A stretch of DNA of 64,000 nt from Bacteroidota bacterium (GTDB lineage Bacteria; Bacteroidota; Bacteroidia; CAILMK01): NCBI GenBank assembly GCA_036846145.1, contig DAIUCM010000004.1:1846-65845 (forward strand). The letters are read 5' to 3'. The notes beneath the pieces are model-generated. The model had not been told where the DNA came from, did not search any database, and saw only the letters and a program-made list of their open reading frames with translations. How positions within the stretch are numbered: position 1 is the stretch's first letter; each line of letters begins with the position of its first letter. Shown one piece after another: positions 181-56,170 of this stretch. Both the position numbers and the translations under genes were made by a program.

Positions 181-604
181 TGGCACCGCTCATATTGTGA
201 AAATGATTAATTCATCATTCTCCTCATTTATATTTTTACAAATTCCTTACTTCATTTCCTTTATAATTTATTAACAACTCCATATTTCAGTTCATAATAA
301 GTGCATATTTTGTAATGCTTAATTTTTAATTCCTGTTATTGCCATATGAATAACCAAAAATGGTTGCATTGCAGGGTAAAAGCTCCTACACTTTTAATAA
401 ACCCATATATACATATATTAAAAAATGCTTTGCCTACGATAAAAATGCAGGCAACCAAAGTATAAAAAAATCAGTCTTGTTAAAAATATTATAAAGTTGA
501 TGATACGAGTTAAACAAGTTTCAGCAACGAAAGCCATATAGCAACTGGCTGAAAAATACTTTGGTATAAGAAATTTAAGATAAACTGGTTAAGTACATTT
601 AGGT

Positions 605-646
605 AAGCGGGCTGCATTATATTTTGCGGCCCGCTTTTTATTTTTC
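605..646 (+). terminator. Plus-strand hairpin with a T-run. It may end an ORF-less transcript that starts near 432.
   Basis: The stem aagcgggctgc / gcggcccgctt is followed by ttttatttttc. No T-tail exists on the minus strand. The hairpin overlaps the App1-like stop codon. Confidence 0.45.
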
Positions 647-1864
647 ATCTATTGGCTTGTCTTTAGCGTCTTCTATAGATCTTGTAACGTCTTCAGCTAC
701 TTTATGCGGAGCTTGTTTTTTAATATTATCGGTTTCTTTGGAATTGTCAACCATTTTGGCAACTTCAATTTCCGGCATCTGGCTGGCATTTATATATCCG
801 CTTTGTATGGCATGTTCGGCCGCTTTCACCGTGTTTTCTATCAATACCATTGGCGTATTGCCGTGCTGTAGCTTTTCGGCTATATCAACCACTACTTTGG
901 CGCGGTCGGGCAGCATTACATCTCTTATATAAGCGGCTAAAATCCTGTCAGGGAAATTCTGTATAACTTCGTGGTAAATTACAGGATCCTGTTGGCCGCT
1001 GTCGCCAATAAGTATAAATTTAAGATTGGGATAGGTATTTAAAATACGCTCAATTTCTGTGTATTTATGCGCTTTGTGGTTTTTCGCAAAAAGCCTGTCG
1101 CGGGTAGTGCCAGTATCACGAAGTAACAATGGGCCATGCGGAATATTATGTACAGCGAGGAAATCTATCAAAAAATCATACAGGTTCCAGGGCGAAGATG
1201 ATACATAAAACAGCGGGTTCAGGCCTTTCCCGTCGGCTCCAAGCTGCAGCGCTTTGTAAAATGCCGATACACCTTCGAACGGAACCCTGCTTCTTGAGTT
1301 TTTGAGAAATACGGTTTTTGCCATTTTCACCCGGTTGGTGGCAAACGATTCTATAACTGTATCGTCAATATCGCTTATAACGCCAAATTCGGCCTGCTTT
1401 GGCGGCACAAAAATAAGCGCCACCGTTTTTACCTTGTTTTTCATAGGTATTGGCGATTCTAACAATTCTATCTCCGCCTCAAACCAATGCCTGTCTTCGG
1501 GGAAAGGCTTTTCAGGTTTAATATCGAAATAAAAATAGCCTTCATCATCCGATACGGTTTCATACTTTTTTCCATCGAAGAGAATAGATAATCTGGCGCC
1601 GGCAACCTCATCGCTTTCGAAGCGTTTGTACATGTTTACAATATTGTCCCAAACGGTATCGCTGTCATCGCTTTTGGTAATGCCTTTATCTTCCATTACA
1701 CGGCCGCGCACATGTATTTCACTATCGGAACCGTATGACCTGTAAGCGCAAACCTGCACCGGGTCAAAAAGGTTAAAACGCTTTTTAAACCTGAATTTAA
1801 GTTTATCTATAAAATCATCGGCATCGTTAACAATACCTGTTATTGTTTTTTTCAGCCCGTTCAT
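638..1864 (-). CDS. App1-family phosphatidate-phosphatase-like protein (HAD-like, DUF2183-type)
   Basis: A 408-aa ORF with the HAD-like DxDxT motif ISDIDDTV. Length and layout match bacterial App1-family proteins. Confidence 0.55.
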   Translation of the reverse strand: MNGLKKTITGIVNDADDFIDKLKFRFKKRFNLFDPVQVCAYRSYGSDSEIHVRGRVMEDKGITKSDDSDTVWDNIVNMYKRFESDEVAGARLSILFDGKKYETVSDDEGYFYFDIKPEKPFPEDRHWFEAEIELLESPIPMKNKVKTVALIFVPPKQAEFGVISDIDDTVIESFATNRVKMAKTVFLKNSRSRVPFEGVSAFYKALQLGADGKGLNPLFYVSSSPWNLYDFLIDFLAVHNIPHGPLLLRDTGTTRDRLFAKNHKAHKYTEIERILNTYPNLKFILIGDSGQQDPVIYHEVIQNFPDRILAAYIRDVMLPDRAKVVVDIAEKLQHGNTPMVLIENTVKAAEHAIQSGYINASQMPEIEVAKMVDNSKETDNIKKQAPHKVAEDVTRSIEDAKDKPIDEK

Positions 1865-2060
1865 TTTGCTTTTTTATTCTGAAAGCTATAAAATGAATTT
1901 GCCTCATAATGTTTAACGGCACTGCATGTGGGGGAATTTTTTTTCAATTAAAAATTAAAAATGCCGCGACGCGGAAATCAATTACAAATTTTGAATTAAT
2001 GCCGTTTGGTTAAGGATTTTTCAAAAGTATTGGTAAATTCAATATATGTGTTTCCAAATC

Positions 2061-2290
2061 ACTTTTTGCCCTCCATTGCCGGGCAGGCTATCCCGATGCA
2101 TCGGGACAAAAGTTCAGGGATGTAAATTATAAGCCAAAAACAGCTTTAAAGCATATTCCACCCTAACCCGTACCAAATTTAATTTGAAAATTTGAAAACT
2201 GGGAGATTTATGGATCGCGAAGCACTGGTTCCTGATAATTGATAAGCTATTTTCTTAACGATTATAATTTAAGGCCGTTCTAACGCTTTG
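2061..2290. repeat. Mosaic intergenic element, copy A. It is homologous to 63159-63495.
   Basis: It shares three modules with copy B: ttgccgggc(a/t)ggc, tgtaaattataag..aaaaacagctttaaagcatat..caccc.aacccg.acc, and tattttcttaacg.ttataatttaaggcc. Confidence 0.7.
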
Positions 2291-2507
2291 CAGTTCTTTT
2301 TACTTTTATCAAAATTAATATAAATTATTAATATCTGATTTCTAATTATTTACGTTGCACCAAGCCCTGAATGGGCGAACTATATCAGCATGGGGCAAAG
2401 CCCTATGTATAAAACGTCCTTACCTAAACGACATTGAATTAAAAATTACGAATAACTAATACAACGATACAAAGCAACCTTCCAAGTTCACTACCTTCAT
2501 GCATATA

Positions 2508-4073
2508 TCAGTTGCCGGAAAAATAGTTATTGTATTTTTCCAGATCTTCGGCGGTACGGGCATCGGCCAGGTTCCAGCTCTGCCAGCGGGCCGATTGCCA
2601 GTTCAGTATAAAATACATGCTTCTTGAATCGAGCATCTGCCTGAACTCTTCAATATCAGTACGGTAAGCCCATGGTCGCGGTAACGATTTCTGCGCATTC
2701 ATCTGCCGTTCAACATCGCTAATCCTGCTATAAAGCAAGGGTAAGGTGTTGTCGTCAAGCTCATAATAAAAATCGGTATCAATGCCCGCGGTATTCCAGT
2801 GGTTGAGGTTGTAATTAACAATAAGCACATCCCATTGTACCGCGCTGAAAAGTACAAGCACTGTGTAGGCAGCCCAGGTGTTTGTTCGCCATAGAAAATA
2901 ATCGCTGCGTTTTTGCTTTATTTTAATAAACAGTGTTGCCAGGCCAATTAATGTAAGCAGCAAAAAAATCATTACACCAATACGTTTATACGCAAGGCCA
3001 TGAAACTGTATATAATGCCAGTTGCGTAAAAACACCGAAAATGTTAAAACCATATTTTGAAGGATCCATATATGAGCCAGCCGTATAATTATTTTATTGC
3101 CTTTGTAAAAATTAAGATTAGCGCGGAAAAAATACAGTAAAATGCCTATGGATAATAAAATACTTAAAATTAGCAGGTAAGTGCCTTCATGTACAAACTG
3201 CTTAAGGTTAAAGTTATGCGGCATGTTAAAGCCAAGCCATATCCAGCTGATATCTATACAGTTAACAACCAGCAGCAGTAAATTTACCAGTATAAGCAGC
3301 CAGGTGGCCGTACGCGCTTCATTTTTTAAGGCTACAGGATTGCGCTCGGGTAAAGTATAATATGGCGAGCGCAGTATTTTTGGCAGCCTTTGCTGTTTTC
3401 GTGCTAAAAATTCGCTTTCAGTGGCTTCTGCTTTAAATAACGAGCGGCTGAAACGGTAAAATAATACAGCAGTTAAAATTATTAAACCAAGCAACAAAAA
3501 GAAAAAATATGGTAAAGAAATGAATGAGAACATCCACTCGAAAAAGATGAAAATATTACTGGTGAACATGCTTGCCATTTTTCCGAAAACAGGGTTCGCA
3601 ATGGAGTATATCATGTAAAAAATAAAGAAGATTAAGAAAGGAATAAGCCCTCTGCGTACAAATCTCCACAAGGGCGAAATGTGCTGTGTATTGCCTGGCA
3701 GATGCTGTAATTTATCGAGCCAAACTACCGGTACCTGTGTAAAACTATACAGCGTTTGTAAAATTATGGAAGGAATATATTGTGAGCGGTAGATATGGAT
3801 AAAGCCCGTACAAATAAAAAACGAAAGGAAAACCATAAAGCCGTTTAAGCCAGTATGGTTCACTGTAAAAAATATTGCTGTAAAAACCGTACACGCGGCG
3901 GTAAAAATGGCTGGGTTTGAACGCCTTGCCCTTGGATTTAGATAAAAATTAACTGCCAGTAACAGCACTGTGAATGCAGACAGGTTTATGCCAAGCTTGT
4001 GCTGCCAGAAAAGATAGCTGTAAATAAGCAGGCAAATGGGCAGAAGAATATTTTTAACAGATAAATGTTTCAT
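2508..4073 (-). CDS. Polytopic inner-membrane protein (DUF4173/DUF4153-like)
   Basis: A 521-aa ORF with more than 10 predicted hydrophobic helices. Coding potential is strong and it resembles Bacteroidota DUF membrane proteins. Confidence 0.5.
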   Translation of the reverse strand: MKHLSVKNILLPICLLIYSYLFWQHKLGINLSAFTVLLLAVNFYLNPRARRSNPAIFTAACTVFTAIFFTVNHTGLNGFMVFLSFFICTGFIHIYRSQYIPSIILQTLYSFTQVPVVWLDKLQHLPGNTQHISPLWRFVRRGLIPFLIFFIFYMIYSIANPVFGKMASMFTSNIFIFFEWMFSFISLPYFFFLLLGLIILTAVLFYRFSRSLFKAEATESEFLARKQQRLPKILRSPYYTLPERNPVALKNEARTATWLLILVNLLLLVVNCIDISWIWLGFNMPHNFNLKQFVHEGTYLLILSILLSIGILLYFFRANLNFYKGNKIIIRLAHIWILQNMVLTFSVFLRNWHYIQFHGLAYKRIGVMIFLLLTLIGLATLFIKIKQKRSDYFLWRTNTWAAYTVLVLFSAVQWDVLIVNYNLNHWNTAGIDTDFYYELDDNTLPLLYSRISDVERQMNAQKSLPRPWAYRTDIEEFRQMLDSRSMYFILNWQSARWQSWNLADARTAEDLEKYNNYFSGN

Positions 4074-4243
4074 ACTTTGTGATTATATTATGCGCCAACG
4101 GTGTTTCTTATGATTTTCTTACAGGATATTTTATTGTGTAAAGGCCCGTAATTTTTTTTCTTTAAAAAGCTGGCTTTGTGGATTTTATTTTGATTAAGAA
4201 ATATTTTATGTAAGTATTTTTTGTGAGGCTTATATATGGAAAA

Positions 4244-4711
4244 TTATGGCTCATGGATAATAACATCAGCATCCGGCTGATGTATGCTGCTTTCTACAAT
4301 ATCTTTTGCGAAGATTAAGGTAACCGGTATGGCCATAAGCAAATGCGCGGAAACCATTTTAAGCAACAATAAATATGTGTTTACCAATTGATACTTACCT
4401 GATGTTGATACGATAAGCGCAAAAAGTACCAGTAACACGAATATGGGGATGGAAACAGCCAGGTAAATATTTTTCACCCGTGCAGAACGTTTAAGCACTG
4501 AAACGTACCGCAGGTTGAAAAATGTTAAAAGCAGCGCCGGTAATGAAAGAAAACTGCCTAAGATGAAATAAAGTAAGAAAGCGGTGCCGGTATCTGTATT
4601 TTTATTAGGCAGAGCTATTTGCTGCAAACCAAGCATTACAGCCAGCATTGAGCCGGTGAAATTTGTTACAAGCCATATTACGAATGATCTTATTGTTATT
4701 AACATGTTCAT
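4244..4711 (-). CDS. Small membrane protein, hypothetical
   Basis: A 155-aa ORF with 4 hydrophobic segments, co-directional with the upstream membrane gene. Confidence 0.5.
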   Translation of the reverse strand: MNMLITIRSFVIWLVTNFTGSMLAVMLGLQQIALPNKNTDTGTAFLLYFILGSFLSLPALLLTFFNLRYVSVLKRSARVKNIYLAVSIPIFVLLVLFALIVSTSGKYQLVNTYLLLLKMVSAHLLMAIPVTLIFAKDIVESSIHQPDADVIIHEP

Positions 4712-5054
4712 AATTAAATAGATATTGTTTTTTAAATTTTGAAGGTAAATTTTTTAGTAATGCCGGGTTTTGTTATCAATTTCATCTTTTATTTAAATGA
4801 TCCTGAAAAATGTTTAATGTTTGAAAGAACTTTGAGTTTCAAAGTAAAAATGCAAAAAAATAGCGTCCATATGATATTTCTTTTTAAGCTTTTGATTTTA
4901 TTATTATTCATTTTATAAGTAATTTTTAGGATGAATTTAGTTTAAATCATTTTACAGTACCCAATTACTGTAAAAAGCTTATCTGCATTATTGGCTCCTC
5001 TATTTTCCAGTAATCAATCCACAATACTTTTATCTCAATACTTGGTTAAAAAAA

Positions 5055-6692: not shown

Positions 6693-6940
6693 AAATGAAA
6701 ATTTATATTGCCAAAAGTAGTGAAATTATGTACAATCATTCGCAAAGCTGTTAATTTAATATAAGTATCTGGACGAAAATGTTGTGCATTGGATTACAGA
6801 AAGAAAACAAAACGCAAACTGCTTTAAATTATATTGCTGGATCAACTTAAGCAGTGCAATTTGATTTTAACTAAATCCGTCATCATACTTACAATGGCGA
6901 ATCTGCATGTAAGAATTAATGTCAAAATAGAATGAGTATT

Positions 6941-7045
6941 GCGCATTTGAAAAGTGTGCTGTGAACCACAGGACACAGAGCTTCGAAGCATTACTCCCTG
7001 GTTCGTGGTACACAAACCAGCATTTTTTACGCATTTTTAAGGCTG
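6941..7045. repeat. Roughly 100-nt dispersed repeat, candidate sRNA, copy A. Copy B is at 56068-56170.
   Basis: About 85% identity between copies over about 100 nt. One substitution pair is compensatory: ACCAC...GTGGT in A against GCCAC...GTGGC in B. Confidence 0.6.
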
Positions 7046-7423
7046 TTTTGATTTAGCGAAGTCAATGTCGTTTAGTTGTGGAAATTTTTTTATTGGAGGT
7101 CTGTGCGCCACAAGCCTCGGAGCAGTGATTTTAGAATTCCACTAAAATTTAGATCATCTTAAAATTCTAAATTTATAACATATTAAACGATTAAATTTTA
7201 AGTCGGAGCTCCCTGTGCTGTTACTCACAGCCCGGAATTTGTAGGGAAACTACCTTAACTAGATGACATTGATAGCGCAGTAAAATTTTTTTATTGTCGG
7301 AGCTGAATTCCTATCCTTATTTAGGCGAGCTGACTGAAGGTTAATTAGGTTTATTAAGCAAATTTTACTGTCAGGCACTTACTTAATTTAACTTGAGCTC
7401 GCGAATTAATTACTTGATTATCG

Positions 7424-30281: not shown

Positions 30282-30351
30282 CATATATAACAATAGCAAA
30301 AAATGCTTTAGGTAGAGATACTTAAAGCATTTTTTGTTAGTTGTATATATG
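30282..30351. repeat. Full dyad element: CATATAT-N9-AAAAAATGCTTTA-loop-TAAAGCATTTTTT-N8-TATATATG
   Basis: A near-perfect 70-bp dyad directly after the plsY stop. It is the prototype of a family that recurs in full or half form at 25 or more sites. Confidence 0.8.
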
Positions 30352-31753: not shown

Positions 31754-32233
31754 TTGCATATATAGGATTCAATGTAGATTAGTTAAGGATGGAATAAATT
31801 CCATCCCTACAATATTTGATCGTCCATACTGGACTTGATTAACGCCACGAAACAAATACCGTAGGAATGATAAAATATTGTAGTAATGGATTTTAATCCG
31901 TTGAAAACAAGAATTTTCTTAACTAAACGACATTGATACAGGATCGCTGAAAATGCTTTATTCAACATATATGATATATGTACAAATAAGTATGGTTTGT
32001 ATTACAGGAAAATGAGATTTTCAGTTCGAAGCTTTGAGGTCAAGATGACTCGAATGACACTTTTCAAAACCACATGATTCATGACATATTGTTAATATTA
32101 TTCACATTCATTACTAAATTCATGAAAACAAGCCCGCAACAGATTTTATATATTCTCTCAAACCGCAAACCGCATGTCTCAGACCCCTAACCGCACGCCG
32201 CATCCAACAAAAAATTCATAACTTTGCCACTAT

Positions 32234-35678: not shown

Positions 35679-35710
35679 CATTTTTCAGCACTAAAAGCAT
35701 TTTTTACAGT

Positions 35711-37666
35711 ATGTATATATGTAAGCTCCGTTATATTTCTGCAACTATTGTATTTATTATATCATGCCTGGCAGCAACCGCGCAGGAATATGTTGTACCG
35801 TTAAAATATAATTCCTTATTAGATACATATATACAGGCTCCAAAAAATACTTCGGGCAAACCAGTAAGGCTTAGCAGACATGGCGAGCCGCATACGCAGT
35901 ATCTCCCGTTTTTCGATGATTTTTCGAATGGATTCCTGCACCCGAATGATACCCTTTGGCTGGACAGGAATGTGTACATCAGCAACACCATGGGTATTGA
36001 TCCGCCAAGCGTTGGCGTTGCCGTTTTTGATGGTATAAACGAATTTGGCAGGGCTTATAATCCGGGCGATCAGGGCACAGGCTCAGCAGGTACAGATACA
36101 CTTACAAGTACGTATATAGATCTTTCAGACTTCTCGCCGCTCGATACAACCATTTATCTCAGCTTTGCTTACCAGCCTGCAGGTCTGGGCGATGCTGGCG
36201 AGCCAACTGATTCGCTTATTCTGCAATTCCACCCGGATTCATTGCTGATAAACGGTGTTTGGGACGATTCCGCATGGGTAAATGTATGGTCGGTTCCGGG
36301 CAGTGCGTTTAAGCCTTTCCAGCATGTAATGATCCCCATCCGTAAACTTACATCACCAAACTATTTTCATAAGAAATTCCAGTTCAGGTTCGTAGCAAGA
36401 GGGCACCGTTCCGGGAATTTAGATAACTGGCTGCTGGATTATGTTTATGTAAACCGTGGCAGAACCAGGACAAATGTGGGAAATAATGTAATAGACCCAC
36501 AGATACAGGATGTGGCCAATTATAAAACATCGGGCAGTATTTTGAACGGTTATTACGCCATGACGATGAAACAATTTCTTGCGGGCGGAACAAACAGCCT
36601 TATCGGCGAAATCCCGATTCATGCTACAAACAACTCCAATGTTGTAAAAAATACAACCTACGGCTACAATATTGTTAATGCAGAAACCGGTCAGGAGCTG
36701 GCAACTTTTTTTGATTCGGAAGGCGACAACGTAAACCCGTTTGAGCACCGCAGTTTCGCGCTGATGAATATCTTATCGCCAAACAATATTCCTGGCCCAA
36801 AATCTACCTTGCTAATTAATACAGTTGTAGAAAGCGTGCCGGACCGTTTCCGCAGTAATGATACCGCAACACATAAGCAGGTTTTTGGCGATTACCTGGC
36901 ATATGATGACGGAACCGCAGAAGCAGGCTATGGCGTAAACAACGCGAATACCGGGAAAGTAGCCATTCGGTTTTCGCTTAATACACCCGATACATTGCAT
37001 GGCATTGCCATAAACTTTAACCAGTCCAATACCTATGTTGGAGGCCGTTTTGTGAACCTGGCTGTATGGCACAAACTTACACCGCCCGGGCAGATTGAAA
37101 AAGATGAACCAGCCGCGAGAATAACCTTTGTCAGGCCGGTTTATGAAAGAGTAAACGGCTACAGCTATTTCGAATTCGAAGAGCCTGTACCGGTTAAAGA
37201 TGAATTTTACATTGGCTGGGTGCAGAACCAGAATTTCAATCTTAATGTTGGCCTGGACAGGAACTACAATGAATTACCGGGTACAAAAGCTGATAATCTT
37301 TTCATCAGCTATGCGGGAAAATGGGAAGTTTCTAAAGTAGATGGCATACCGATGCTTAGGCCGTACATTGGCAGCAACCCGGTTTTTGTTGGAACAGAAA
37401 AACATCCGAAAACACAATTTAACATACTGGACGCCAACATTTATCCGAACCCTAACAACGGAGATTTCAACATACACTTACCAGAAAAAGGCAATTACGA
37501 AATCACTGTTTTTGATATAGCCGGTAAACCTGTATTACAAACATTGCAAACACGCATCAGCACCAGCTTATCATTACCGCAGGTTAAGGCAGGCTTATAC
37601 CTCGTTAAAATAACGGAAAAAAACAGCGGCAGGCAGGTTGTTAAACGCATTTCTGTACTAAAATAG
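35711..37666 (+). CDS. Secreted protein with a T9SS C-terminal sorting domain
   Basis: A signal peptide plus the C-terminus NIYPNPNNGDFNIHLP...KAGLYLVKI..., typical of a T9SS CTD. Confidence 0.75.
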   Translation: MYICKLRYISATIVFIISCLAATAQEYVVPLKYNSLLDTYIQAPKNTSGKPVRLSRHGEPHTQYLPFFDDFSNGFLHPNDTLWLDRNVYISNTMGIDPPSVGVAVFDGINEFGRAYNPGDQGTGSAGTDTLTSTYIDLSDFSPLDTTIYLSFAYQPAGLGDAGEPTDSLILQFHPDSLLINGVWDDSAWVNVWSVPGSAFKPFQHVMIPIRKLTSPNYFHKKFQFRFVARGHRSGNLDNWLLDYVYVNRGRTRTNVGNNVIDPQIQDVANYKTSGSILNGYYAMTMKQFLAGGTNSLIGEIPIHATNNSNVVKNTTYGYNIVNAETGQELATFFDSEGDNVNPFEHRSFALMNILSPNNIPGPKSTLLINTVVESVPDRFRSNDTATHKQVFGDYLAYDDGTAEAGYGVNNANTGKVAIRFSLNTPDTLHGIAINFNQSNTYVGGRFVNLAVWHKLTPPGQIEKDEPAARITFVRPVYERVNGYSYFEFEEPVPVKDEFYIGWVQNQNFNLNVGLDRNYNELPGTKADNLFISYAGKWEVSKVDGIPMLRPYIGSNPVFVGTEKHPKTQFNILDANIYPNPNNGDFNIHLPEKGNYEITVFDIAGKPVLQTLQTRISTSLSLPQVKAGLYLVKITEKNSGRQVVKRISVLK

Positions 37667-55643: not shown

Positions 55644-55830
55644 TTACATTTAATAACGTGAGCTCTGGCATTAATTGTTTTATTTTCAGCAATTTAATTC
55701 CAGTATTACATATATCCCTTAGTCGAAAAATGCCCCGAGGTATCGGGATATATTACTTTAAACCTTGATTTGAATTGGACGCACAAATTCAGTACATGGG
55801 TTTGTTCTGCGAAGTTTTAAACTTCGCATA

Positions 55831-55864
55831 TTTTAACTGGTAGTTTGCAAACTACCAGTTAAAA
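55831..55864. promoter_or_regulatory. A 34-bp perfect palindrome, candidate operator or protein-binding site
   Basis: ttttaactggtagtttgcaaactaccagttaaaa. The adjacent gcgaagttttaaacttcgc is a near-palindrome. Confidence 0.5.
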
Positions 55865-55974
55865 TAATCTTAGCAAAAATGCTATGATTAGCAGTAATAC
55901 TATCTGATTAATTCCCAAGTTCACATCTTAATAGCAAAACAAAGCATTTTTTGCACTCCCTATATATGGGCGTT

Positions 55975-56041
55975 TAACATAATACGAGAAAACCGCATTT
56001 GCAAAGCTGCAAGTGCGGTTTTCTCGTATTATGTTATTTTC
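55975..56041 (+). terminator. Hairpin with a 22-bp perfect stem followed by a T-rich tract
   Basis: aacataatacgagaaaaccgca / tgcggttttctcgtattatgtt with a 17-nt loop, then attttc. Confidence 0.5.
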
Positions 56042-56067
56042 AAAAATTATAAAATATAGAATAAACA

Positions 56068-56170
56068 GTGCGCATTTGAAAGTGTTTTTGAGCCACAGGC
56101 CACGGAGCTTCGAAACAATACTCCTTGGTTTCGTGGCACACAAACCTGCATTATTTACGCATATTTCATT
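56068..56170. repeat. Roughly 100-nt dispersed repeat, candidate sRNA, copy B
   Basis: See 6941-7045. Confidence 0.6.

What the first reader, a model, noticed from the sequence alone, without database searches (positions are those of the whole stretch)
2061..2290. Shared 250-350 bp mosaic non-coding element upstream of two lipid-metabolism genes (App1-like phosphatase and AcpH)
The regions 2061-2290 and 63159-63495 share three ordered conserved modules: ttgccgggc.ggc; tgtaaattataag..aaaaacagctttaaagcatat..caccc.aacccg.acc; and tattttcttaacg.ttataatttaaggcc. The middles vary. Each lies in the same orientation 100-200 nt upstream of a minus-strand gene start, the App1-family phosphatidate phosphatase-like gene and the acyl-carrier-protein phosphodiesterase-like gene. 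Both of those genes act on lipid or acyl-carrier intermediates. Smaller modules recur elsewhere: ctaaacgacattga at 2426, 7061 (reverse complement) and 31922, and a variant of the third module at 7182-7200. This is either a co-regulatory leader, such as a riboswitch or long 5' UTR element for membrane-lipid homeostasis genes, or a dispersed mosaic repeat.
Basis: partly seen in the sequence, partly recalled or inferred. Interest (0 to 1): 0.55.

Follow-up and report, generated by a model that had tools for sequence, protein, structure and literature searches.

The report
Two-copy mosaic intergenic foldback repeat
Two long gaps between genes in this Bacteroidia genome carry copies of the same patchwork non-coding repeat, whose core can fold back on itself, and it looks like a lineage-specific dispersed repeat rather than a conserved switch for lipid genes.

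Summary
Window 2063-2290 and 63164-63498 share three ordered, co-oriented modules: M1 (26 nt, 88%), M2 (70 nt, 89%, E 3e-18) and M3 (47 nt, 85%). The spacers between them and the flanks are not homologous. New anatomy: M2 and M3 are imperfect inverted repeats of each other. The core M2-interior-M3 is therefore a 185-230 bp foldback unit, strong in copy B (arm z 9.6, fold z -4.2) and decayed in copy A (arm z 1.8, fold z about 0). M1 is a separate GC-rich hairpin.

The element is absent from the orthologous intergenic regions of every relative recovered (62-80% protein identity). Those relatives keep only about 50 nt directly upstream of the APP1 gene. The element matches no Rfam family. Its 18-nt core has no true match in the genome, metagenome or viral collections. 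A terminator-like hairpin lies between copy B and its gene. A second assembly diverges within 3 nt of the outer edge of M2.

The same window holds several other short repeat families.

Best reading (about 0.5): a lineage-restricted, MITE/BOX-like mosaic intergenic repeat. A riboswitch or leader for lipid genes is not supported. The gene-class link rests on two genes, one only distantly AcpH-like. Interest is low.

The parts
2063..2088 (.). Copy A, module M1: GC-rich hairpin module (TTTTTGCCCTCCATTGCCGGGCAGGC)
   Evidence: 88.5% over 26 nt to 63164-63189. The pattern occurs twice in the window against 0 expected. By eye, the outermost hairpin pair is A-T in copy A and G-C in copy B.
2089..2106 (.). 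Copy A, M1-M2 spacer. Contains a 16-nt perfect palindrome, TCCCGATGCATCGGGA (2091-2106). Not homologous to the spacer in B.
   Evidence: Self inverted match 2091-2106. Spacer comparison z 0.12.
2107..2174 (.). Copy A, module M2. It is the left arm of the foldback unit (TAAATTATAAG..AAAAACAGCTT) plus conserved inner and outer flanks. It contains the palindrome GCTTTAAAGC.
   Evidence: 88.6% over 70 nt to 63267-63336, E 3e-18. Arm-to-arm alignment.
2175..2243 (.). Copy A, variable interior of the foldback unit. About 40 nt shorter than in B, and lacking the inner part of the right arm.
   Evidence: No similarity to the B interior (z -0.75). Alignment gap.
2244..2290 (.). Copy A, module M3: right arm of the foldback unit (..AAGCTATTTTCTTAACGATTATAATTTAAGGCC..)
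   Evidence: 85% over 47 nt to 63452-63498, E 5e-9. Pairs with M2 in the minimum-energy fold. The arm similarity is weak (z 1.8).
63164..63189 (.). Copy B, module M1: hairpin GTTGCCGGGCTGGCAAC with upstream TTTTTGCCCTTC
   Evidence: Flagged as a plus-strand terminator-like hairpin, 63176-63192.
63190..63266 (.). Copy B, M1-M2 spacer (77 nt, against 18 nt in A). Contains the hairpin CCCCGAAGGG (UUCG loop on the minus strand). Not homologous to the spacer in A.
   Evidence: z 0.12.
63267..63336 (.). Copy B, module M2: left arm of the foldback unit
   Evidence: The Logan contig L107 diverges from the window at 63269/63270, within 3 nt of the outer end of this module.
63337..63451 (.). Copy B, variable interior. 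It has an internal stem, GCAACCCG/CGGGTTGC. It also holds one copy of the abundant bipartite motif (63420-63446) and the inner part of the right arm (ATATGCTTTAAA).
   Evidence: Reverse-strand hit of the M2 core at 63442-63462.
63452..63498 (.). Copy B, module M3: right arm of the foldback unit
   Evidence: The arm alignment GGCTGTAAATTATAAG-GCTA--AAAACAGCTTTAAAGCATAT against the reverse complement of the right arm spans 43 columns, z 9.6, with 0 of 1000 shuffles reaching it. Unit fold z -4.22.
63065..63099 (-). Terminator-like hairpin (14-pair stem plus U-rich tail). It lies between copy B and the GTG start (63054) of the AcpH-like gene. It is context, not part of the repeat.
2022..2029 (-). 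Canonical Bacteroidetes -7 box, TACTTTTG, 34 nt downstream of M1 on the minus strand. The counterpart in B is TACTTTTT at 63131-63124, 33 nt from M1. Possibly an outward-facing promoter associated with M1.
   Evidence: The positional agreement was seen by eye, and function is untested.

Best explanation
The two regions are copies of a lineage-restricted, non-coding, modular dispersed repeat. Its core (M2-interior-M3, about 185 bp in A and 230 bp in B) is a foldback unit with long imperfect inverted-repeat arms and a freely variable interior. It is accompanied, on the side nearer the downstream gene, by a GC-rich hairpin module (M1) at a variable distance.

Inferred: the element arrived at both loci by transposition in trans (MITE-like) or by recombination between repeat copies (BOX/BIME-like). 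It did not arise through selection for control of the neighbouring genes. Copy B is near-intact. Copy A is a decayed copy that has lost about 40 nt of its right arm.

Also inferred: any effect on expression is a by-product. If the element is read through from the upstream gene, it would form a long RNA hairpin that could pause or terminate transcription or be cut by RNase III. The M1 side may carry an outward-facing promoter-like box.

Shown: the homology, the inverted-repeat architecture, the absence from relatives, the lack of coding potential, and the lack of any Rfam match. Mobility and the RNA-level consequences are inferred.
For: - Three modules are 85-89% identical, while the spacers and flanks are unrelated. 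That is a true mosaic, not uniform decay of a duplicated segment.
- M2 and M3 are inverted repeats of each other. In B the arms align over 43 columns with z 9.6. In A they are weak, z 1.8.
- B folds far better than shuffles on both strands (z -4.2 and -3.4). A does not (z about 0). So structure is not maintained in both copies.
- The element is absent from orthologous sites:
  - The DUF4153-APP1 intergenic region of the 80%-identity relative (L037-L039) shares only about 50 nt next to the APP1 start.
  - L040/L041 have other genes at that position.
  - The TM2/AcpH-like/LytB locus of L105/L106 and the TyrRS/AcpH-like locus of L102-L104 show no similarity.
  - nhmmer module profiles find nothing in about 110 kb of relatives' DNA.
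- There is no conserved reading frame. 1-nt indels shift the frame inside M2.
- A second assembly of the same population, L107, is 100% identical over 7.4 kb. It switches to unrelated sequence within 3 nt of the outer boundary of M2.
- The same window holds other short dispersed repeat families in its long intergenic regions. A relative carries its own 59-nt-arm foldback element in an intergenic region.
- This fits a genome whose spacers collect such elements.
Against: - Only two copies are known.
- The rest of the source genome could not be searched. The public scans needed an exact 18-mer, so diverged copies would be missed.
- No target-site duplication could be defined.
- No transposase or recombinase was found among 36 window proteins scanned.
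- M1 lies outside the inverted repeat, yet keeps its order and orientation in both copies.
- Sharp 85-90% blocks next to unrelated spacers could also mean selection on the modules.
- Both copies have the same orientation relative to the downstream gene. Both are followed at the same offset by a -7-like box.
- Two mismatches conserved in the long stem would be G-U pairs on the minus strand only, and M1 shows one compensatory pair. Both were read by eye, and both hint weakly at RNA.
- The variant in L107 is not a clean empty site.
Confidence: 0.5

Rival explanations
1. Species-specific cis-regulatory leader (riboswitch or attenuator) on the minus strand. Transcription would start just upstream of M3. 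The M3/M2 stem and M1 hairpins would sense a signal and control the hairpin-plus-U-run that precedes each gene. This would co-regulate the APP1-like phosphatase and the AcpH-like/LytB genes.
For: - Both copies have the same orientation upstream of minus-strand genes.
- A perfect -7 box, TAATTTTG (2317-2310), lies about 20 nt upstream of M3 in A. A one-mismatch box with TTG at 22 nt lies at 63495-63488 in B.
- A strong terminator-like hairpin lies between copy B and its gene.
- In B, the GGCAAC of M1 could pair either with its own GUUGCC or with the GGUUGCC arm of that terminator (by eye).
- The distance from M3 to the gene start is similar in both copies: 426 and 444 nt.
- APP1_cat is confirmed, and the second family is distantly ACP_PD-like.
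Against: - The element is not present at the orthologous loci of any relative.
- No Rfam match.
- The fold of copy A equals shuffled sequence.
- Differences in the stem break pairs without compensation.
- The terminators are not homologous. The one in A is too weak for the scan.
- APP1 keeps its own conserved proximal region with a -7-like box downstream of the element.
- The gene theme is post hoc, with n = 2.
Confidence: 0.1
2. Two paralogous small-RNA genes (sibling sRNAs). They would be transcribed independently on the minus strand and end at the downstream hairpins. The 22-nt identical core of M2 would serve as a seed or protein-binding region.
For: - Copy B sits between a possible terminator of the TM2 gene (A-run/GCATGC/T-run at about 63540-63565, by eye) and the hairpin at 63099-63065.
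- Conserved blocks are separated by variable loops.
- The minus-strand fold of B has z -4.15.
- Two G-U-compatible mismatches occur on the minus strand only (by eye).
Against: - No promoter or terminator is shared at equivalent positions within the homologous part.
- The flanks up to the terminators are not homologous.
- Copy A is not structured.
- At 230-450 nt it would be unusually long.
- No homologue occurs in relatives or in Rfam.
Confidence: 0.12
3. Invertible DNA switch (inverton). The M2 and M3 arms would be recombinase sites flanking a 150-200 bp segment that flips, giving phase-variable expression of the downstream genes, as in Bacteroides invertible promoters.
For: - The inverted-repeat cores, TAAATTATAAG and CTTATAATTTA, lie 149 bp (A) and 197 bp (B) apart including the arms. 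That is the usual size range.
- The arms are conserved between loci while the interiors differ.
- Both copies are located upstream of genes.
- A -7 box, TAAATTTG, lies inside the interior of A, facing the gene.
- An assembly discontinuity occurs at the left arm of B.
Against: - The L107 junction lies outside the inverted-repeat core and does not match an inverted interior.
- The independent contig L036 has copy A in the same orientation.
- No promoter is shared between the two interiors.
- No recombinase was found in the window.
- The conserved modules extend well beyond typical recombinase sites.
- The arms in A are degenerate.
Confidence: 0.06
4. Non-mobile relic. An old local duplication or gene-conversion tract between two intergenic regions, later broken up by indels, with no function and no further copies.
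For: - Only two copies were found.
- Copy A shows deletions relative to B.
- No transposase and no target-site duplication were found.
Against: - The loci are 61 kb apart, and none of the flanking sequence or genes is duplicated.
- Blocks of about 90% identity abut completely unrelated spacers. Indels alone explain that poorly.
- The L107 variant points to another arrangement or copy.
Confidence: 0.12

Closest known systems
BOX elements of Streptococcus pneumoniae (boxA-boxB-boxC modular repeats; from my own knowledge)
   Same: - Non-coding, intergenic and modular.
- The end modules are mutually complementary and form a long stem-loop.
- The middle varies between copies.
- No transposase of its own.
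- Can alter expression of neighbouring genes as a side effect.
   Different: - No sequence relation, and a different phylum.
- BOX has more than 100 copies per genome, whereas only two copies are known here.
- The middle of BOX is a repeated boxB unit, not unrelated sequence.
- An extra hairpin module (M1) lies outside the stem here.
Bacterial MITEs: Correia/NEMIS elements of Neisseria, ERIC/IRU of enterobacteria, and the Porphyromonas gingivalis MITEs such as BrickBuilt (PMC4596501) as Bacteroidota examples
   Same: - Size of 100-400 bp.
- Inverted-repeat arms and an intergenic location.
- Lineage-restricted.
- Foldback RNA when co-transcribed.
- Some carry outward promoters.
   Different: - No target-site duplication, partner IS, or high copy number could be shown.
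- The arms are long and imperfect.
- In copy A the arms are barely above chance.
REP/BIME mosaics of E. coli and the GTAG/CGTC-tagged REPs (PMC3733652)
   Same: - Clusters of short GC-rich hairpins combined with other motifs in a mosaic.
- Located in intergenic regions between co-directional genes.
- M1 and the spacer hairpins resemble REP-type palindromes in an AT-rich background.
   Different: - No GTAG or CGTC tag on M1.
- No RAYT gene was seen.
- The main unit here is a 200-bp foldback, not a 35-nt palindrome.
Riboswitches and structured 5' leaders (Rfam families)
   Same: - Upstream of genes and in the same orientation.
- A hairpin plus U-run lies between the element and the gene in copy B.
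   Different: - No conservation at orthologous loci.
- No family match.
- No maintained fold in copy A.
- No compensatory changes in the main stem.
Bacteroides invertible promoters (invertons; from my own knowledge)
   Same: - Inverted repeats conserved between loci.
- The repeats flank a variable segment of 150-200 bp upstream of genes.
   Different: - No evidence of both orientations.
- No shared internal promoter.
- No recombinase nearby.
- The conserved blocks are much larger than recombinase core sites.

Membership tests
MITE (miniature inverted-repeat transposable element) | Small (under about 600 bp) and non-coding | tested here: met
   228 and 335 nt. There is no conserved frame, because 1-nt indels inside M2 shift the frame.
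MITE (miniature inverted-repeat transposable element) | Terminal inverted repeats | tested here: inconclusive
   B: arms align over 43 columns, z 9.6. A: 28 columns, z 1.8. M1 lies outside the arms.
MITE (miniature inverted-repeat transposable element) | Target-site duplication flanking the element | tested here: inconclusive
   No convincing direct repeat was seen at the ends of homology by eye. No empty site is available: the relatives' intergenic regions cannot be aligned, and L107 is not a clean empty site.
MITE (miniature inverted-repeat transposable element) | Many dispersed copies in the genome | not testable with these tools
   Two copies in 64 kb. The other contigs of the source MAG could not be reached. 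The L107 variant hints at another copy or allele.
MITE (miniature inverted-repeat transposable element) | Partner insertion sequence with matching ends | tested here: not met
   No transposase or recombinase domain in 36 window proteins. No match in plasmids, phages or viral contigs. The rest of the genome is untested.
Riboswitch / cis-regulatory leader | Conserved upstream of orthologous genes in related genomes | tested here: not met
   Absent upstream of APP1 in L037-L041 and upstream of the AcpH-like gene in L102-L106.
Riboswitch / cis-regulatory leader | Common secondary structure supported by stability and covariation | tested here: not met
   Copy A z about 0. Stem differences between the copies are one-sided. 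Two sequences give no statistical power.
Riboswitch / cis-regulatory leader | Lies within the 5' UTR of the regulated mRNA | not testable with these tools
   No transcript data. Indirect evidence: a terminator-like hairpin between B and its gene, and a conserved proximal region with a -7-like box between A and the APP1 gene.
Any Rfam family | Covariance-model score at or above the gathering threshold | tested here: not met
   0 hits in the window at gathering threshold. Only chance-level hits over the element in E-value mode.
Inverton (invertible promoter) | Both orientations present in the population | not testable with these tools
L036 shows copy A in the same orientation. The L107 tip does not match an inverted interior.
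Inverton (invertible promoter) | Promoter inside the invertible segment | tested here: inconclusive
   A has TAAATTTG at 2181-2174. B has only one-mismatch boxes. Nothing is shared between the copies.

The most novel reading that the evidence does not exclude
The element is a young, species-specific regulatory device. It would be either an attenuator-type structured leader or a phase-variable (invertible) switch. It would have been recruited in front of two membrane-lipid/isoprenoid-related transcription units (the APP1-like phosphatidate phosphatase, and the AcpH-like plus LytB/IspH genes), so that they respond together. The conserved M1, M2 and M3 blocks would be the functional sites.
Probability: 0.08. 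Interest if true: 0.6.

Novelty: new member of a known kind. Interest (0 to 1): 0.22.

Why it matters
If the best reading holds, this is one more lineage-specific intergenic repeat family. Its practical value is threefold. It marks a place where assemblies of this uncultured Bacteroidia lineage break or vary. It warns annotators not to read a riboswitch into sequence shared upstream of two genes. It is also an example of repeat-laden intergenic regions in Bacteroidota, where few MITE-like elements have been described. Only if the minority reading were true would it bear on how membrane-lipid genes are co-regulated.

Tried and rejected
- **Public DNA scans.** Exact 18-mer scans for AACAGCTTTAAAGCATAT gave 35 hits in genome contigs and 60 in metagenome contigs. 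All are single chance matches or Clostridia sigma-factor coding sequence, and none shares flanking similarity.
- **Mobile-element collections.** Viral scans with M1, M2 and M3 patterns gave 0 hits. Distant blastn against plasmids and phages gave none.
- **Rfam.** Gathering mode and E-value mode gave nothing on the element.
- **Coding hypothesis.** The relative's 88-aa ORF has no remnant in the window. The six-frame ORFs are not conserved between the copies.
- **Extended homology.** Tests into the flanks, the spacers and the interior were all at chance.
- **Further copies.** Module HMMs run with nhmmer on the window plus about 110 kb from relatives found no further copies. The proposed M3 variant at 7182-7200 is not significant.
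- **Two-sequence RNAalifold.** Uninformative.
- **GTTGCC..GGCAAC hairpin family.** None found in the window.
- **Other side of locus B.** The last protein search, with the partial TM2 protein, found nothing at E 1e-20. The 107-aa ORF is not on record. The contig on the far side of locus B could therefore not be examined.
- **Abundant AAAGCATTTTT..TATATATG motif as the housekeeping promoter.** Rejected. Canonical TAnnTTTG boxes are seen separately, and the motif also fills convergent intergenic regions.

Full report
**Setting.** The window is ordinary chromosome from an uncultured Bacteroidia lineage.
- The APP1-like protein is identical to one on a 68.9-kb NCBI/ENA/Logan contig.
- Its nearest relative is 80% identical and labelled 'MAG: Bacteroidia bacterium'.
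- Thirty-six proteins scanned with Pfam are housekeeping or envelope proteins: GatB, an RpoD-type sigma factor, a Mur ligase, LytB, glycosyltransferases and the like. None is a transposase or recombinase.
- Canonical Bacteroidetes -7 boxes (TAnnTTTG) sit 15-40 nt before many start codons.

- Intergenic region A (1865-2507) lies between the APP1-like gene 638-1864(-) and a DUF4153 gene 2508-4073(-).
- Intergenic region B (63055-63636) lies between a distantly AcpH-like gene and a TM2-domain gene, both on the minus strand.
- The two regions share three modules in the same order and orientation:
  - M1: 2063-2088 / 63164-63189, 88% over 26 nt.
  - M2: 2107-2174 / 63267-63336, 89% over 70 nt, E 3e-18.
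  - M3: 2244-2290 / 63452-63498, 85% over 47 nt, E 5e-9.
- Each pattern occurs exactly twice in the forward orientation, against about 0 in shuffles.
- The M1-M2 spacer (18 vs 77 nt), the interior between M2 and M3 (69 vs 115 nt) and both outer flanks are no more alike than shuffled sequence. The element is therefore a true mosaic.
- The recurring 14-mer CTAAACGACATTGA is confirmed.
- The suggested M3 variant at 7182-7200 is not significant.

- The left part of M2 and M3 are inverted repeats of each other.
- In B, GGCTGTAAATTATAAG-GCTA--AAAACAGCTTTAAAGCATAT aligns with the reverse complement of the right arm over 43 columns. The z-score is 9.6, and 0 of 1000 shuffles reach it.
- In A, only TAAATTATAA plus AAAA-AGCTT survive (z 1.8). 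The M2 core also hits 63442-63462 on the reverse strand.
- The core is thus a foldback unit of about 185 bp (A) or 230 bp (B), with conserved arms and a variable interior. M1, a GC-rich hairpin, lies outside it.
- B folds much better than shuffles on both strands (z -4.15 and -3.42 for the whole element; -4.22 for the unit).
- A does not (z 0.07, -0.29, -0.16). A lacks about 40 nt that form the inner right arm in B.
- Read by eye, the few differences between the copies in the long stem are one-sided and break pairs in one copy or the other.
- Two mismatches common to both copies would be G-U on the minus strand only.
- The outermost pair of the M1 hairpin is A-T in A and G-C in B.
- With two sequences, none of this amounts to covariation support.
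- No reading frame is conserved, because 1-nt indels shift the frame within M2.

**Is it a conserved leader?**
- In the closest relative (three MAGs plus a Logan contig, APP1 80% identical), the DUF4153-APP1 interval is about 330 nt.
- That interval aligns with the window only over the roughly 50 nt next to the APP1 start codon. This stretch includes a near-consensus -7 box, TAGCTTTC. The element is absent.
- In a 63% relative, other genes occupy the interval.
- For locus B, L105/L106 (65% identity) keep the TM2 / AcpH-like / LytB order with a 387-nt spacer that shows no similarity.
- L102-L104 (62% identity) have a 150-nt spacer next to a tyrosyl-tRNA synthetase gene.
- Module profiles find nothing in about 110 kb from these relatives.
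- Rfam gives no hit on the element at either threshold.
- The 18-nt core has only chance matches in 596 Gb of species-representative genomes and in the metagenome collection. It has none in viral contigs, plasmids or phages.
- A 14-pair hairpin with a U-rich tail (63099-63065, minus strand) lies between copy B and its gene, 11 nt before the probable GTG start.
- In A, a weak hairpin and T-runs (about 1975-1950, by eye) and the conserved proximal region lie between the element and the APP1 gene.
- These facts argue against a riboswitch or shared 5' UTR element.

**The gene-class argument is weak.**
- APP1_cat is solid (E 1e-51).
- The second protein matches no Pfam or NCBIfam model itself.
- Nine of 13 family members reach PF04336 at E<=0.01, and no solved structure is hit.
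- Two genes grouped after the fact carry little statistical weight.

**Evidence for a repeat with more than one arrangement.**
- Logan contig L036 (run SRR3961739) covers window 405-4960, including all of copy A, at 100% identity.
- L107, from the same run, matches window 63269-55840 at 100% identity. Its first 25 nt (TTTTGTATTCGTGAATGCTTCGCAA) are unrelated to the window.
- The switch point, 63269/63270, is within 3 nt of the outer end of the A/B homology in M2.
- The tip resembles a nearby segment of the spacer in B (TTGTATTCGTGA + hairpin).
- It matches neither an inverted interior nor the right flank of M3. So it is neither a simple inversion nor a precise excision.
- It shows that reads exist in which B's M1-plus-spacer adjoins something other than M2. 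That is either an allele or another locus.
- I could not obtain the contig on the TM2 side.

**Context.** The long intergenic regions of this window, about 10 kb in all, are full of other short repeats.
- An Acido-Lenti-1-like double hairpin lies at 2363-2407(-), inside region A, with 33.6 bits against a gathering score of 37. A second copy lies at 48018-48059.
- A 113-nt pair lies at 6927-7038 / 56056-56166.
- A 66-nt pair lies at 46624 / 48088.
- The CTTAACTAAACGACATTGA module recurs.
- A bipartite motif, AAAGCATTTTT-N-TATATATG, has 47 hits against 2.2 expected.
- A relative carries its own foldback element with 59-nt arms in an intergenic region.
- The finding is therefore one instance of a general habit of this lineage.

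**Verdict.**
- Most likely (about 0.5), this is a lineage-restricted MITE/BOX-like mosaic repeat. B is a fairly intact copy and A a decayed one. Any regulatory effect is incidental: hairpin formation on read-through, or possibly an outward -7 box 33-34 nt beyond M1 in both copies.
- The rivals are sibling sRNAs (0.12), a non-mobile duplication relic (0.12), a species-specific leader or attenuator (0.10), and an inverton (0.06).
- The main limits are that only two copies exist, there are no transcript data, and there was no access to the rest of the genome or to reads.

Noticed in passing
whole window, e.g. 30282-30351, 35695-35721, 43159-43197, 46740-46778, 63420-63446; also L037, L038, L102, L105: A bipartite motif, AAAGCATTTTT(CRGC)-N~7-(T)ATATATG, gives 47 hits in 64 kb against 2.2 expected.
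- 28 hits lie in the 16% of the window that is intergenic.
- It occurs in both orientations, including in convergent intergenic regions.
- It is sometimes found as inverted pairs 4-100 nt apart.
- It occurs at about 6 per 10 kb in relatives at 62-80% protein identity. It is absent from the 63% relative L040 and from unrelated taxa.
- It is distinct from the canonical TAnnTTTG promoter box.
- In density and distribution it resembles uptake-signal or REP-like sequences. Its function is unknown.
   Followed up: partly
window 2363-2407 (-) and 48018-48059: A double GC hairpin matches Rfam Acido-Lenti-1 (RF01687) just below threshold: 33.6 bits against 37, E 7e-4 for the whole window. A second copy is 79% identical over 42 nt, with identical stems and different loops and linker. 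Its orientation relative to the flanking genes differs between the two copies. A bioRxiv preprint (10.64898/2026.02.09.704811) reports Acido-Lenti-1 annotations in Tannerella.
   Followed up: partly
window 6927-7038 and 56056-56166 (+): A second two-copy non-coding repeat, 83% identical over 113 nt. It ends in a hairpin plus T-run on the plus strand, so it is a candidate small RNA or another dispersed repeat.
   Followed up: partly
window 46624-46689 and 48088-48153: A 66-nt repeat, 89% identical. It consists of the bipartite motif (reverse orientation) followed by three TTGGCTAATT units. It lies upstream of the plus-strand genes at 46781 and 48164 (GatB).
   Followed up: no
window 2419-2437, 7062-7075 (-), 7254-7272, 31918-31936: The short module CTTAACTAAACGACATTGA recurs in three long intergenic regions: three exact copies of the 14-mer core against 0.04 expected, plus one variant. 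It shares ATTTTCTTAAC with M3 at 31912.
   Followed up: partly
L107:1-25 vs window 63270-63294: The Logan contig from run SRR3961739 is identical to the window for 7.4 kb. It begins with 25 nt that are not found anywhere in the window, and the junction lies at the outer edge of M2. This is an unexplained structural variant or a second locus.
   Followed up: partly
window 55829-55866 and 55975-56036: A perfect 38-nt palindrome and a 62-nt, 97%-complementary hairpin lie in one 538-nt convergent intergenic region. The Logan contig L107 ends inside the palindrome.
   Followed up: no
L105:2200-2414: A relative carries a foldback element with 59-nt arms (95% complementary) 97 nt apart. It lies in the RuvB-QueG intergenic region and is directly followed by a copy of the bipartite motif.
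   Followed up: no
window 47528-47817: Sequence after the ORF 46781-47527 still looks coding to my eye, resembling a Fic/DOC-like C-terminus. That would suggest a frameshift, a split gene, or a miscalled stop. It was seen only by reading and has not been checked.
   Followed up: no
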